The notes under the pieces were generated by a model. It saw only the letters and a program-made list of their open reading frames with translations, was not told the origin of the DNA and did not search any database. From IMG/VR virus record IMGVR_UViG_3300037762_000135, positions 1 to 57,020 of that record: a stretch of DNA of 57,020 bases. One strand, 5' to 3'. A program made the position numbers and the translations under genes. Below are positions 1-56,914 of this stretch, piece after piece. Positions within the stretch are counted from its first letter, which is position 1, and the number at the start of each line of letters is the position of its first letter. Source of the DNA: a virus. Its lineage: Duplodnaviria > Caudoviricetes.

Positions 1-127
1 AGCACGGCCGTTCCGGCCTAAATCATGGCAACCATTAGCGCGGGCGATCTAGCCCTACTCCGATTGCGGAAACCACATAGCGTATTTTACCTGACGGCAT
101 GCCCTGCCACGGCATTGTGGTCGGCGC
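1..127 (+). repeat. Terminal direct repeat, copy 1 (assembly overlap)
   Basis: Identical to 56894-57020. Confidence 0.95.
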
Positions 128-3100
128 GGGTGGTTGGCTCGTTGGGTCGTGGGGAAACGGCCGTTACCTTTGACGGTGGTTCAGGCGCTAATTTTACCGC
201 TGTGGGCGCTTTTCAGGAGTTGTGGATAGGTTCAGCCGCTGGCTTGCATGACGTTGGCAGAATCCGTATCAGGAGCGTGTCTAGCGGCGATTCTGGCGTG
301 ACTGGAACCGTCACTGTAGCGGCAAACTCATTTGTCACGACTGACAACGATTTTTTAACATTTGTAGGCTGGTATCTTCTGAAACCGATACGGCCGTTGA
401 TTGGCGGTGACGGCACATTCTACAAAGATACGAATGTCACCTACAGCGACCAAAACAGCGAACCGCCGCCGGTGTGCATTGCGGGCGAGAACCGGGCGGG
501 ATTCATTGATCCGACTGATGGCTATTTCGAGATTACCAGTCAACTGCCGTCAAGCTACGCCATGGCCAGCGGTGCCACGATTAGCAGCTACGCGGCGGCA
601 TTGGTCTATGGCCCTGATACCCCGGCAATCTCTGTTAATGCTGGCAGCGGTGTAGGCACGATTCGATTCGATACGGCCGGGGTCTACTGGATTAAGTGGA
701 CTGTGACTGACTCCAACGGTAAGAGCCAGGACACCTACCGCTGGTACTATGCTCACTCGCCAGTCATTAATAGTGCCAATTATCCGATTGTGGACTTTTC
801 AGTAAACAATGTATCAGGTGACTATGAAAATGGCGGCTGGGGCTGCGGGGTACAGCTGCACAATGACGCGGCATTGGCTGATATTCCCGACTATGCGCCT
901 ATCATTTTGTGGGCTGAAAACTGGTACGGAGCCACCAAGAAAAACATCACGCAGCTGCCAGACGAATCAGGGACGGTAGTTAATGGCTACGTGCGGCGCG
1001 ACCAGTTCAGCAGCGAACTGGAGGGCGGAGCGCATACGGCCACCTTTGAGATTACGACCATCCAGGGCGTCAACGAGAATAAGTACAATTTCTCTGTCAG
1101 TCTGGAGGCTGCGCAAACCGTTGATACGTGGTGGAAATATCCGTCGTGGCTGACGCCTACACGGGCCGTTCATCATTTCTTCAAGTGGCATAGCACGCTT
1201 TTGGAAGTGGCTGATTTGATTGGCCTGGATAGCAACACGGACGGCATAGCCTACGCTGAATTTCAGGACGGCACGTTGCTGGGGATGCCGAATTCATTCT
1301 TGCGGGATCGGTCTATCCGTGCCTCGCTGGTTTGCGACCAGGGCGGCCGCCTGCACGTGGTGGAGGATATTCAGCTACGGCCGGACAGTGAACGCGCCGG
1401 ACTGGGCAACGTGCAAGAGATTACGACGGCCGATAAATCAGGCGAGATTGTTTTTGTCAGGGAACAGGAGAACCGTACGCCATTTGTCCACGCCAGCGGT
1501 TTTTCGTTTGGCGGCACTTTTGACGCCGACGGCAAACCAGAAGCAAATGCCATTTGTGCCATTGCGCCGGGTGATAGTCCTGATGAGGACGGCGCGTCTC
1601 CTGTTTCATACGGCCGTCAAACATTTACAGGTCAGACACACGCCAATGCCATTGCCGGGCGCGTCCTGGCAGCGGAAAACAATAAGCTGCCAGAAGTGCG
1701 GGTGAACTTTTCCGGCAATTATCTGGGGGTGCTGGGGATTCATTTAAGTGAATTTTGGGACACCACCATAGCCACGAGTGACACGGCGCGTCAAATCGCA
1801 GAAACGCACAACCTGATTTTACAGAACGTGGTGGCTACGATTGACGCACGCAACGGCACGGTGCTGCCTGTGGCCACTTTTGAAGCGGAGGCATTGGGGC
1901 AAACGGGTATTGCCACCGACTGCCCCACTTTTCCCGATTTGCCCGGTGATGATTTTGAGATTCCAGAGATTGAAGATTTGCCGGGGGCATTGGTAACGGC
2001 CGCTTCTGTCAACTATCTGCCACCACAAACTAAAGCATGGACGGTGCGAACGGCCGAAGCGACTGAGCATCTGCACGCTGATCCATTCTGGACTACTCGC
2101 CAGGATTCATTTGCCAGCGGTGACGCTATTCTATTGCGCTGTGGCGTGGGCTACATTAAGCGCAGCACGGACGCCGGCGCGAACTGGTCAGTGATTACGC
2201 CAGCCACAGACCCGCCAAACGACGCGGGAGATAGCCCAGCGCCAACCGTGGGTGATGTGACATTTATCCAGGGCGAGGGCAGCTATATTACCGAATCCGA
2301 ACAAGTTTTTATTGGGCGTTGGCAGAATGCCAGTGATGAGTGGCGTAGCTGGATTGCTTACACTGACGACGATGGGAGCAACGCTACATGGCAAGGGATA
2401 AGCGGCGGCGGTGTGGCTGTTGAGTTATCCGCGATTGTTGCCAATGACACGCTAGACCATCCGCACACCAGTTCGGCAATTCAAATAGACCCGACGCACG
2501 TGGGGATTCTGGTAACGGCATCCGGTACATCGCAAACGATGCGGCTTGTAATTGTCGATACGGGCGATGGGACAATCACAGATACATTGGAGGCGCTGCA
2601 AACTGGCGGCTCTACGATTCACGCCGTTTGTCGATTGGCAGAGAATAGGATAGCGGCCGTTGTATATGACAGCGATTCGGCATCACTCCTTACGCAGGTT
2701 TTTACCATCGTTGACGGGGTCGAAGATTCCGCGACATCTGCCGAATTTCTGGTTAGCACGAGCGGCGGTGCTCCAACGGCCGTGAGTGTGGCGCGGGCAT
2801 CTGACACGGAATACATCGTTGCTGTGAACAAAACTGGCAGCACAAACAAAGGCGTGCTGTTTGCCTGCGAGTACAGTGTAGGTGGTGATAGCGTTTCTTC
2901 TGGTTCCGAAACAGATTTCTTTGCTGACCCGGTTGATTACCTCTCAATGATTAGCGCCGGAACGGGGGTGCATCTCTACTACTCAGATACCAACCTTACC
3001 CGGCTGGCGGGTGTTAGCCTCACTGTTTCCACGCTGACGATTAGCCAAGGCTCACACTTTCAAGTCACCAGCAGAATGCCGAACCAGATGAGCGCCGCAA

Positions 3101-56480: not shown

Positions 56481-56914
56481 CGAATTTATACCGTATCGCA
56501 TTGACTGAAGCTGGGCTAGAGAAGGGATTCCTTTTCAGCCTGGGTATCCCACGGCCGTCGAACCAGTTCAAAAGTTACAGCACCCAACTGCCACAGGGCA
56601 ACGGCGGGCAAAAGCGCCTTGGCTACGAAAACGACGTGTGGCAATGGATTGCCGTCACGCCTACGCAGGTCAATGAGATTTGCGAAATTGTGGAAGCGGC
56701 ATTGGCTGGCAACGGCGTGATTTATGTCACAATGCCTCGCGCCAATGGTCAGAATGCCGGGCTTGATTGGGTGGATGCTTACGGCATTCCTATCTACCCT
56801 GAGATTGTCCAGATTCAAGACGCGAATGTAAACGGCCGTGTCATTCAATCAGTGACAATGACCATCAACAATATAACGATTGTAAACGAGGTCAGCACGG
56901 CCGTTCCGGCCTAA
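56477..56914 (+). CDS. Distal tail-like protein
   Basis: Directly after the tape measure gene. Confidence 0.55.
   Translation: MTNLYRIALTEAGLEKGFLFSLGIPRPSNQFKSYSTQLPQGNGGQKRLGYENDVWQWIAVTPTQVNEICEIVEAALAGNGVIYVTMPRANGQNAGLDWVDAYGIPIYPEIVQIQDANVNGRVIQSVTMTINNITIVNEVSTAVPA

What the first reader, a model, noticed from the sequence alone, without database searches (positions are those of the whole stretch)
4..56904. HIP1-like highly iterated palindrome ACGGCCGT saturates a phage genome
Seen: about 88 exact copies by manual count (roughly 1.5 per kb), against about 0.9 expected for a random 8-mer in 57 kb, plus dozens of one-mismatch variants around CGGCCG. Copies occur in all three frames (TAV; NGR/DGR/YGR/HGR; RP) and between genes (8784, 15596, 23737, 31383), so codon or amino-acid bias cannot explain them. 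Known: cyanobacterial HIP1 (GCGATCGC) behaves this way and has been linked to a cognate methyltransferase and to recombination. Inference: this is a different HIP, probably imposed by a Chloroflexota host through methyl-directed repair or gene conversion, or used as an uptake/recombination signal. From memory only (unverified), some Anaerolineae/Ardenticatenaceae MAG proteins are rich in ETAV/NGR.
Basis: partly seen in the sequence, partly recalled or inferred. Interest (0 to 1): 0.85.

Follow-up and report, generated by a model that had tools for sequence, protein, structure and literature searches.

The report
Host's iterated palindrome ACGGCCGT saturating phage
This 57-kb phage carries the 8-letter palindrome ACGGCCGT about once every 650 bases, the same density as in the Chloroflexota bacteria (family Promineifilaceae) that are its likely hosts, so it bears the mark of an unexplained genome-wide process like the cyanobacterial HIP1 repeat.

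Summary
The window holds 89 copies of ACGGCCGT. That is 88 unique copies, because a 127-nt terminal repeat duplicates one. Chance gives about 1, and a synonymous-codon shuffle gives 11.6.

The word has a CGGCCG core with two independent A/T flank preferences. It has rewritten proteins: the tripeptide TAV is 6-fold enriched.

The word belongs to a host lineage, not to the phage lineage. 66 of 121 Promineifilaceae genomes sampled carry at least 0.5 copies per kb (median 1.49; the phage has 1.55). 47 of 49 phage loci with a related terminase carry none. Six genomes of the same family instead carry TGCCGGCA, and never both words.

The host-imposed reading is supported. The methyltransferase part is not: neither the phage's C5 methylase gene nor any host methylase family I tested tracks the word.

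Host copies sit in a mirror-symmetric G>C skew zone of 30-50 nt. The phage copies lack it, so the word and the zone can be separated.

I found no publication on this word. This scan has already noted the same word on many other Chloroflexota genomes and phages.

The parts
4..56904 (.). Array of 89 exact ACGGCCGT copies (88 unique), 1.55 per kb. Median spacing is 464 nt and the largest gap is 4,632 nt.
   Evidence: Searches give positions and spacing. One search gives the codon nulls. One search gives the frames. In one search, 5.5% of 20,000 uniform placements reach the largest gap, so the spread is close to uniform.
1..127 (.). Terminal direct repeat, left copy. It is identical to 56894-57020 and holds the copy at 4-11.
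   Evidence: 127 nt, 100% identity. (the record is classed as having direct terminal repeats).
56894..57020 (.). Terminal direct repeat, right copy. It holds the copy at 56897-56904, which is the same site as 4-11.
39835..41190 (+). Terminase large subunit gene with three copies (39925, 40181, 40747). Two were made by substitutions that changed residues conserved in relatives.
   Evidence: Terminase_3, E 1.7e-43. In one search, 14 relatives have PAA[LIVMYA] (one has PSAV) where the window has PTAV, and 12 of 14 have xxxLF where the window has LNGRF. There are no indels at either site.
41464..42771 (+). Portal protein gene (phage identity); one copy at 42574.
   Evidence: SPP1_portal, E 6.7e-25.
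47189..48145 (+). Major capsid protein gene (phage identity); no copy inside.
   Evidence: Phage_capsid, E 1.1e-34.
20345..21010 (+). Small (221 aa) C5-cytosine DNA methyltransferase gene of the phage. I tested it as a possible cause of the word and found no link.
   Evidence: translation shows the FSGAGG, PPCQ and ENV motifs. (phrog_363, E 5.9e-38). (PF00145, weak). (1 of 121 host genomes; 478 phage relatives; 0 of the 80 best loci word-rich).
31417..32334 (+). D12-class DNA methyltransferase gene of the phage; its specificity is unknown. GATC is three-fold under-represented in the phage.
   Evidence: PF02086, E 5.2e-17. (best host match 36% identity). (GATC 74 observed against 221 expected).
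23745..28368 (.). Longest stretch without a copy (4.6 kb). It holds a GIY-YIG/HTH nuclease module, a primase C-terminal domain gene and a RepL-like gene, and only 3 core hexamers lie in 24-28 kb.
   Evidence: The gap alone is not significant (P = 0.055).
14400..39800 (.). Early, recombination and replication half of the genome: 29 copies in 25.4 kb (1.14 per kb), against 59 in 31.5 kb (1.87 per kb) for the structural half.
   Evidence: counts. (RecT-like, HNH, Holliday-junction resolvase, DnaB, PriCT).

Best explanation
Shown. ACGGCCGT is a lineage-specific highly iterated palindrome of Promineifilaceae (Chloroflexota). This phage carries it at the density of its presumed hosts. The copies arose in place by point substitutions after the phage lineage split from relatives that lack the word, and they cost it codon choice and protein sequence.

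Inferred mechanism. A host-cell factor that reads the CGGCCG core as two half-sites (ACGG|CCGT) converts near-matches into the word and holds them there. This would be a biased repair or conversion drive acting in trans on any DNA that replicates in these cells, phage DNA included. No DNA polymerase was found in the phage, so it presumably uses the host replication and repair machinery.

The drive must be fast compared with ordinary divergence. In host chromosomes a slower, strand-asymmetric process centred on each copy adds a 30-50 nt G>C skew zone. I suggest a nick at the word followed by 5'-to-3' excision, which would expose the opposite strand's 5' flank. Phage copies have not acquired that zone. 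Which enzyme does this is unknown. None of the methyltransferases I tested qualifies.
For: Density match:
- The phage has 1.55 copies per kb.
- The 66 word-rich genomes among 121 of the family have a median of 1.49 and a range of 0.50-2.18.
- Five whole genomes hold 5,395-15,492 copies, against 18-209 copies of the reversed word.

Lineage restriction:
- In 401 genomes of the class, only 6 exceed 1,000 copies, and all 6 reappear in the family sample.
- 49 of the 50 dense loci in the all-species scan are Chloroflexota records.

Not inherited with the phage:
- 47 of 49 loci with a terminase 25-66% identical have 0 copies, including ones of similar G+C.
- The exceptions are L160 and L201.
- 0 sites are shared in the aligned terminase: 2 window sites against 2 in L160 and 0 in L201.

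In-place substitution that overrides proteins:
- TAV occurs 49 times against 7.7 expected.
- 72 of 86 TAV/[NDHY]GR tripeptides are written with the word.
- Conserved PAA[LIV] became PTAV, and LxxLF became LNGRF.

Half-site reading and tight maintenance:
- The two flanks are independent (89 observed against 85 expected from 121 x 118 / 168).
- Inner one-off words are at or below expectation in hosts and phages (O/E 0.4-1.5).

Acts in trans, not through chromosomal residence:
- No integrase family hit among the 30 ORFs scanned in Pfam, which include every ORF of at least 200 aa.
- The terminase was not found in 121 family genomes.
- 24 of 119 viral loci from the paired-word scan are also word-rich.

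Dialects: 6 of 121 family genomes carry TGCCGGCA at 0.9-1.8 per kb and ACGGCCGT at no more than 0.055 per kb. None is rich in both.

Skew zone, given as folded G-C:
- 721 host sites: +0.32, +0.16, +0.11, +0.08 and +0.03 for positions -4..-3, -10..-5, -20..-11, -30..-21 and -50..-31.
- 86 phage sites: +0.125, then about 0.
- 382 sites in other word-rich viral loci: +0.17, then about 0.
- Control palindromes in host loci: about 0.
Against: - No enzyme has been identified. The drive itself is inferred, not observed.
- A drive and direct selection on the phage predict most of the same patterns.
- If the skew zone and the word came from the same enzymatic act, phage copies should show at least part of the zone. 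They show none beyond -4.
- The host is assigned by word content only. There is no CRISPR spacer, tRNA or prophage match.
- Host flanks come from 50 loci chosen because two copies lie close together, though the viral loci were chosen the same way.
- The phage ratio of 8-mer to core (0.53) is lower than the hosts' (0.66), so the phage is not an exact copy of the host state.
- The one methylation-linked hint is that a C5 methylase gene lies next to Vsr in G313 and G005. This keeps a methyl-directed version alive for some genomes.
Confidence: 0.5

Rival explanations
1. Direct selection on the phage. The dense word is a host 'self' mark read by a host nuclease, defence or recombination system, much as Chi protects DNA from RecBCD. 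Phages that write it into their genomes survive better. The host skew zone is a by-product of long chromosomal residence and is irrelevant to the phage.
For: - The phage has the full host density but none of the extended skew zone, so the word and the zone can be separated.
- 84% (72 of 86) of the tripeptides that can hold the word do hold it.
- Conserved terminase residues were sacrificed.
- There is no sign of lysogeny.
- Several genes of likely recent arrival (HNH and GIY-YIG nucleases, about 3.3 kb) hold 1 copy, where about 5 would be expected by my arithmetic.
Against: - No such reader system is known or was found.
- 88 copies is far more than a protective signal such as Chi needs.
- A palindrome cannot carry the orientation information that Chi uses.
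- A fast drive plus a slow scar explains the same data.
Confidence: 0.25
2. Methyl-directed ratchet, which is the first reader's reading and Elhai's model for HIP1. A conserved CGGCCG- or GGCC-specific methyltransferase marks the core, and a methyl-dependent mismatch or very-short-patch repair turns near-matches into the word.
For: - The deviation pattern matches HIP1: variation sits at the first and last letters and the inner hexamer is fixed (Elhai 2015, PMC4390886, abstract and passages seen).
- Alternate words replace each other within one family, as in cyanobacteria.
- In G313 (rich in TGCCGGCA) a C5 methylase gene lies 31 nt from a Vsr gene, and G005 has the same pair with a stop in the methylase.
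- D12-class enzymes can be GGCC-specific (Elhai 2015 methods passage).
Against: - G002, the richest genome (15,492 copies), has no PF00145 match.
- Vsr is in 2 of 5 genomes.
- No PF00145 or PF01555 orthologue at 40% identity or more is shared by G001, G002 and G005. The weaker group around G001_L131 also includes G441, which carries the other word.
- The D12 homologue is in 100 of 121 genomes, including 5 of the 6 TGCCGGCA genomes and many word-poor ones. It was not found in word-rich G407, G411, G419, G004, G448 and G465.
- The phage methylase family is unrelated to the word.
- Only five genomes were examined for most families, and specificity cannot be read from sequence.
Confidence: 0.15
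3. DNA-uptake signal. The word accumulates because competent cells preferentially take up and recombine DNA that carries it, as proposed in 2026 for HIP1.
For: - The density is similar to the uptake sequences of Haemophilus and Neisseria (about 1 per kb; recalled, not from a call).
- The HIP1-competence correlation is reported in PMC13756078 (abstract and introduction read).
Against: - An uptake drive acts only on DNA that recombines into the chromosome.
- Here the copies were created inside phage-only genes. The terminase was found in 0 of 121 family genomes, and sites were created by substitution in the terminase.
- At least 24 other viral loci are word-rich.
- Known uptake sequences are not palindromes (recalled).
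Confidence: 0.06
4. The cause lies in the phage or its ancestry, or in composition. The word is inherited with the phage lineage, made by a phage-encoded enzyme, or produced by codon and amino-acid usage.
For: The phage encodes two DNA methyltransferases and several HNH and GIY-YIG nucleases.
Against: - 47 of 49 terminase relatives have no copy.
- 0 of the 80 loci with the closest C5-methylase relatives are word-rich.
- The same word fills cellular genomes of 5-8 Mb.
- The synonymous shuffle gives 11.6 against 81 observed.
Confidence: 0.03

Closest known systems
HIP1 (GCGATCGC), the highly iterated palindrome of cyanobacteria (Elhai 2015, PMC4390886; Xu et al. 2018, PMC5861425; Rodriguez-Cruz et al. 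2026, PMC13756078)
   Same: - It is an octamer palindrome and the top 8-mer of the genome.
- Elhai's Table 2 passage gives 300-2,700 copies per Mb. Here the figures are 1,547 per Mb in the phage and 500-2,180 in hosts.
- Copies lie in all frames and between genes, and are made by substitution.
- Deviations concentrate at the first and last letters.
- The word is lineage-wide, with exceptions.
   Different: - The word (core CGGCCG) and the phylum differ.
- No cognate methyltransferase was found with my tests.
- Host copies sit in a mirror-symmetric G>C skew zone. I found no mention of such a zone in the HIP1 passages I read.
- Inner one-off words are not in excess, whereas Elhai calls one-off HIP1 sequences common.
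- Here the carrier is a phage. The word 'phage' does not occur in the main text of either Elhai 2015 or Xu 2018.
Alternate HIPs that replace HIP1 in single cyanobacteria (GGGATCCC, TCGATCGA, CAGGCCTG and others; Elhai 2015; introduction of PMC13756078)
   Same: Within one family, a different GC-rich palindrome (TGCCGGCA) takes the place of ACGGCCGT in 6 of 121 genomes and never occurs together with it.
   Different: In cyanobacteria each alternate word came with a matching methyltransferase (Elhai abstract). Here two TGCCGGCA genomes (G313, G441) share no C5 methylase at 40% identity or more.
HIP1 scarcity as a marker of recently acquired genes in Synechococcus elongatus (Delaye et al. 2011, PMC3025956; passages read)
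   Same: Word density behaves like a clock of residence in the lineage. The early half of the phage, with its nuclease genes, is poorer than the structural half (1.14 against 1.87 per kb).
   Different: That work concerns chromosomal islands. Here a whole, apparently non-integrating phage has reached the host level.
Very-short-patch repair shaping oligonucleotide abundance in E. coli
   Same: It is a site-specific repair system that biases substitutions toward a palindromic recognition word. Its patch geometry, a nick at the site followed by 5'-to-3' resynthesis, could give a mirror-symmetric flank effect.
   Different: The effect in E. coli is a few-fold, not about 80-fold. Vsr was found in only 2 of 5 genomes here.
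DNA uptake sequences of Neisseriaceae and Pasteurellaceae (listing of PMC1939737 seen; the rest recalled)
   Same: The density is about 1 per kb, copies lie inside genes, and they affect protein sequence.
   Different: Those sequences are not palindromes. An uptake drive cannot write into genes of a non-integrating phage.

Membership tests
Highly iterated palindrome (HIP) in the sense of HIP1 | A palindromic octamer that is the most abundant 8-mer and is tens- to hundreds-fold over expectation | tested here: met
   (top 8-mer). (89 against 1.28). (hosts hold 5,395-15,492 copies against 18-209 of the reversed word).
Highly iterated palindrome (HIP) in the sense of HIP1 | Not explained by codon or amino-acid usage, and present in all frames and in spacers | tested here: met
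   (81 against 11.6 +- 3.0 and 1.9 +- 1.4). (frames 42/30/9, with 8 copies outside or at the edge of ORF calls).
Highly iterated palindrome (HIP) in the sense of HIP1 | Spreads by nucleotide substitution, not by insertion | tested here: met
   two of the three terminase sites align without gaps to relatives that lack the word. The third lies in an unalignable N-terminus. Only one gene was examined.
Highly iterated palindrome (HIP) in the sense of HIP1 | One-letter deviations concentrate at the first and last positions | tested here: met
   (61 outer against 14 inner). (outer O/E 1.4-7.6, inner 0.4-1.5, in hosts and phages).
Highly iterated palindrome (HIP) in the sense of HIP1 | Shared by a whole lineage, with alternate words in some members | tested here: met
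   (66 of 121 genomes at 0.5 per kb or more; 6 of 121 with TGCCGGCA instead).
Highly iterated palindrome (HIP) in the sense of HIP1 | A methyltransferase specific for the inner hexamer co-occurs with the word | tested here: inconclusive
   no tested methylase tracks the word. Specificity cannot be read from sequence, and only five genomes were screened for most families.
Highly iterated palindrome (HIP) in the sense of HIP1 | Sites conserved between related genomes beyond the codon effect (Xu et al. 2018) | tested here: inconclusive
   0 shared sites in the terminase at 65% identity. That is too divergent to judge, and no closer phage relative was available.
Highly iterated palindrome (HIP) in the sense of HIP1 | Quasi-periodic spacing along the chromosome | not tested
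   57 kb is too short. The spacing looks close to uniform.
DNA uptake sequence | Accumulates in DNA that enters by transformation and recombines into the chromosome | tested here: not met
   Copies were created in phage-only genes. The terminase was not found in 121 family genomes.
Chi-like recombination hotspot | An asymmetric word with orientation bias relative to replication | tested here: not met
   The word is its own reverse complement, so it cannot be oriented.
Phosphorothioate (Dnd) modification at a GGCC core | dndC present in word-rich genomes | tested here: not met
   0 of 5 genomes have a match over the TIGR03183 cut-off.

The most novel reading that the evidence does not exclude
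The palindrome is a host 'password' that phages must copy. In Promineifilaceae a dense ACGGCCGT (or, in sister genera, TGCCGGCA) marks DNA as self for a still unknown nuclease or repair system. Phages are selected to write the local dialect into their genes, while the 30-50 nt skew zone seen only in chromosomes is the footprint of that system's repeated action on resident DNA. If so, HIPs in general, cyanobacterial HIP1 included, would be self-recognition marks. Phage genomes would then give a direct read-out of which part of the signal is functionally required: the core plus about 4 flanking bases.
Probability: 0.22. Interest if true: 0.85.

Novelty: new variant of a known kind. Interest (0 to 1): 0.72.

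Why it matters
HIP1 has been unexplained for three decades and is studied only in cyanobacteria. This is an independent case in another phylum, with a different core, sister dialects within one family, and phages that carry the local word. That gives natural contrasts that the cyanobacterial system lacks.

The phage is especially useful. It shows that the word can be written quickly into DNA that is not part of the chromosome and shows no sign of integrating. This argues against a pure DNA-uptake drive. The phage also separates the word from the flanking skew zone of host copies.

In practice, the word is a strong host-assignment marker for uncultured Chloroflexota phages. Its local absence flags recently acquired genes.

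Tried and rejected
- Codon or composition artefact: rejected.
- High-order Markov 'refutation': rejected as circular.
- Inheritance with the phage lineage: rejected (47 of 49 terminase relatives have none).
- Phage C5 methylase as the cause: rejected.
- Host C5, N4/N6 and D12 methylases and Vsr as correlates: none tracks the word.
- Dnd phosphorothioation at GGCC: dndC was not found over the cut-off in 0 of 5 genomes.
- Extended hairpin or inverted repeat around host copies: rejected. Complementarity between positions -i and +i equals the shuffled value except at +-1 (0.388 against 0.290). The skew zone is therefore compositional.
- Prophage origin: the terminase was not found in 121 family genomes, and no integrase family hit was found among the ORFs scanned.
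- Dialect-matched phages for TGCCGGCA: inconclusive.
- The 4.6-kb word-free stretch as a significant island: not significant on its own (P = 0.055).
- Not attempted: CRISPR-spacer or tRNA host matching, methylation read-out, sequencing-run look-ups, structure prediction. Supplementary files of the papers were not opened and may hold word tables that bear on the novelty claim.
- Literature searches for this word or for HIPs outside cyanobacteria or in phages found no description. One search returned 293 papers holding the 8 letters. Only the 20 listed were seen, and they appear to use it in primers or constructs.

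
Full report
**Observation.** ACGGCCGT occurs 89 times in the 57,020-base window. 100 dinucleotide-preserving shuffles give a mean of 1.28 and a maximum of 5. It is the most frequent 8-mer, and all the next-ranked 8-mers overlap it. Positions 1-127 are repeated exactly at 56894-57020, and the record is classed as having direct terminal repeats. The unique genome is therefore 56,893 bp with 88 copies, or 1.55 per kb.

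**Nulls.** Of the 89 copies, 81 lie inside my ORF calls. 200 synonymous-codon shuffles within genes give 11.6 +- 3.0 (maximum 19). 200 codon permutations give 1.9 +- 1.4 (maximum 7).
- The synonymous null is well above 2 because the proteins themselves are rich in the encoded peptides. TAV occurs 49 times against 7.7 expected, while the five other orders of T, A and V occur 6-19 times. NGR occurs 18 times against 3.5, and DGR 10 against 4.6.
- 42 of 49 TAV, and 72 of 86 TAV/[NDHY]GR tripeptides, are written with the word.
- Markov expectations climb to 85 at order 6. This only restates that the word's own 7-mers are abundant, so it is not a refutation.

**Anatomy of the word.** The core CGGCCG occurs 168 times.
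- An A precedes the core 121 times and a T follows it 118 times. Both occur 89 times, against 85 if the two flanks were independent. The word therefore behaves as two independently read half-sites.
- One-letter variants at the six inner positions number 0-3 each (14 in all). Variants of the outer letters number 3-20 each (61 in all).
- In 358 kb of host loci and 229 kb of phage DNA, inner one-off words are at or below a second-order expectation (O/E 0.4-1.5). Outer variants are 1.4-7.6-fold enriched. There is no halo of decayed copies.
- Frames are TAV 42, [NDHY]GR 30 and xRPx 9, with 8 copies outside or at the edge of ORF calls.

**The window is a phage.** Pfam and PHROGs identify these genes:
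- terminase large subunit, SPP1-type portal and HK97-type capsid protein;
- an M23 peptidase protein and a GDSL-like acylhydrolase domain;
- DnaB-type helicase, a primase C-terminal domain and a RepL-like protein;
- a RecT-like annealing protein and a Holliday-junction resolvase;
- several HNH nucleases and DUF5131;
- a D12-class methyltransferase and a 221-aa C5-cytosine methyltransferase.

None of the 30 ORFs scanned in Pfam, which include every ORF of at least 200 aa, matched an integrase, recombinase or DNA polymerase family. Smaller ORFs were only partly scanned.

**Where else the word is dense.**
- All-species scan. 50 of them have at least 1 copy per kb and at least 5 copies. 49 of those 50 are records titled Chloroflexota, Chloroflexi, Anaerolineae, Ardenticatenaceae, Promineifilaceae, Leptofilum or Hadersleviella. 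One is a 2.8-kb contig of a bin labelled Gammaproteobacteria. The remaining loci are mostly high-G+C actinomycetes at chance density.
- Whole genomes. Five whole genomes hold 5,395-15,492 copies, against 18-209 copies of the reversed word.
- Class sample. Among 401 genomes of the class, only 6 exceed 1,000 copies, and all 6 belong to the family of G001.
- Family sample. This family includes Ca. Hadersleviella danica (G004) and so corresponds to Promineifilaceae. In its 121-genome sample, 57 genomes have at least 1 per kb, 9 have 0.5-1, 23 have 0.1-0.5 and 32 have under 0.1. The median of the 66 rich ones is 1.49 per kb and the maximum is 2.18. The phage value of 1.55 lies at their 61st percentile.
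- Second word. Six genomes of the same family carry the reversed word TGCCGGCA, itself a palindrome, at 0.93-1.81 per kb. They carry at most 0.055 per kb of ACGGCCGT. No genome is rich in both.

**Not a phage heirloom.** Of 49 viral loci whose terminase is 25-66% identical to the window's, 47 have no copy at all. These include L161 (66% identity, 55% G+C, 11.6 kb) and L166 (63%, 55% G+C, 21 kb). Only L160 (7 copies in 7.5 kb) and L201 (10 in 18.5 kb) are word-rich.
- In the terminase alignment the window's PTAV stands where 14 relatives have PAA[LIVMYA] (one has PSAV). Its LNGRF stands where 12 of 14 have xxxLF. Neither site has a gap.
- No site is shared with L160 or L201.
- The copies were therefore made in place, after divergence, at the expense of conserved residues.
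Other phages share the trait.

**Lifestyle.** The terminase was not found in any of the 121 family genomes, and no integrase family hit was found. Nothing suggests long residence in a chromosome, although absence from a sample of draft genomes is weak evidence.

**Methyltransferase tests.**
- The phage's C5 methylase has relatives in 1 of 121 family genomes. It has 478 relatives in viral contigs, and none of the 80 best loci is word-rich.
- In five host genomes (three ACGGCCGT-rich, two TGCCGGCA-rich), PF00145 is missing from G002, the richest, and carries a stop in G005. Vsr is present only in G005 and G313.
- PF01555 genes number 3-20 matches per genome, but no orthologue group at 40% identity or more is shared by G001, G002 and G005. 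The weaker group around G001_L131 (34-36%) also includes TGCCGGCA-rich G441.
- A D12-class gene that is 79% identical between G002 and G005 has homologues in 100 of 121 genomes. These include 5 of the 6 TGCCGGCA genomes and many word-poor ones. It was not found in several word-rich ones.
- dndC was not found.

**A difference between host and phage copies.** I folded both flanks onto the 5' side of the word.
- 721 host copies show G-C of +0.32 at -4..-3, +0.16 at -10..-5, +0.11 at -20..-11, +0.08 at -30..-21, +0.03 at -50..-31 and about +0.02 beyond. There is a small T>A excess. The left and right flanks agree (0.102 and 0.114).
- Control palindromes in the same loci give about 0.
- There is no per-site complementarity between the flanks beyond +-1, so this is a skew and not a hairpin.
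- The window's 86 usable copies show +0.125 at -4..-3 and then 0.02, 0.01, 0.03 and 0.00.
- 382 copies in the other word-rich viral loci show +0.17 and then 0.007-0.015.
I confirm it, and I show that this phage and 24 other viral loci lack it.

**Mechanism.**
- Shown: the word is host-lineage-specific. It is written into phage genes by substitution, and it is maintained tightly at the inner six letters.
- Inferred: a host factor reading two half-sites drives or selects the word on any DNA in the cell.
- The drive reading (confidence 0.5) explains the near-saturation of available tripeptides and the dialects. The missing skew zone then means the zone is a slower by-product. Its geometry, with a G-rich and slightly T-rich 5' flank on each strand, fits a nick at the word followed by 5'-to-3' excision, which would expose the opposite strand to cytosine deamination.
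- The main rival (0.25) is direct selection on the phage to imitate a host self-mark.
- A pure DNA-uptake drive (0.06) cannot write into genes of a phage that shows no sign of integrating.

**Literature and novelty.** Six searches found no description of this word, of a HIP in Chloroflexota, or of HIPs in phages.
- I read the abstract and passages of Elhai 2015, passages of Xu 2018 and of Delaye 2011, and the abstract and introduction of Rodriguez-Cruz 2026. Supplements were not available.
- This scan's own notes already record the same word on many other Chloroflexota genomes and some phages (69 notes). Within the scan this is therefore a repeat finding on new DNA.
- The additions here are the terminase-relative contrast, the negative methylase and Dnd tests, and the host-versus-phage difference in the flank zone.

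**Limits.**
- The host is assigned by word content alone.
- Gene calls are my own ORF picks.
- Host flanks come from 50 loci of roughly 30 bins.
- The methylase screens covered five genomes for most families.
- Three genomes flagged unpublished (G351, G394, G427) are included only in the tallies.

Noticed in passing
Genomes G313, G269, G441, G459, G471, G484: A second iterated palindrome, TGCCGGCA (core GCCGGC), reaches 0.93-1.81 copies per kb in six Promineifilaceae genomes that almost lack ACGGCCGT. The two words are mutually exclusive in the 121 genomes sampled.
   Followed up: partly
G313:C2:3160825-3161952 and G005:C122:7442-8784: A C5-cytosine methyltransferase gene lies directly next to a Vsr (very-short-patch repair) gene. 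In G313, the genome richest in TGCCGGCA, the two are 31 nt apart. In G005 the methylase carries a TAA stop.
   Followed up: no
Genomes G114, G154, G321, G366 (0 copies) and G113, G180, G188, G324, G286 (1-2 copies): Several genomes of the class, 2.9-6.2 Mb in size, have 0-2 copies of ACGGCCGT while the reversed word occurs 49-389 times. This looks like strong avoidance and may reflect restriction at the CGGCCG core.
   Followed up: no
L347 (viral contig locus, 20.6 kb): A phage locus found through the C5-methylase relative holds 13 copies of the cyanobacterial HIP1 word GCGATCGC and only 2 GGCC. This is a likely cyanophage carrying its host's HIP, a parallel to the present case.
   Followed up: no
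window, whole; D12 methylase gene at 31417-32334: GATC is three-fold under-represented (74 observed against 221 expected from base composition) in a phage that encodes a D12-class methyltransferase.
   Followed up: no
window 16833-17330 (-), 22664-23719, 23995-25027 (-), 29473-30084: HNH and GIY-YIG/HTH nuclease genes total about 3.3 kb and contain one copy of the word, where about five would be expected by my arithmetic. This fits recent arrival of these mobile genes.
   Followed up: partly
L040 (2.8-kb contig of a bin labelled Gammaproteobacteria): This contig has 11 copies of the word in 2.8 kb. It is probably a Chloroflexota or phage contig placed in the wrong bin, which suggests the word could serve as a binning check.
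   Followed up: no
L461, L541, L442 (viral loci): These mid-G+C viral loci carry TGCCGGCA at about 0.7 per kb. They may be phages of hosts with the second dialect.
   Followed up: partly
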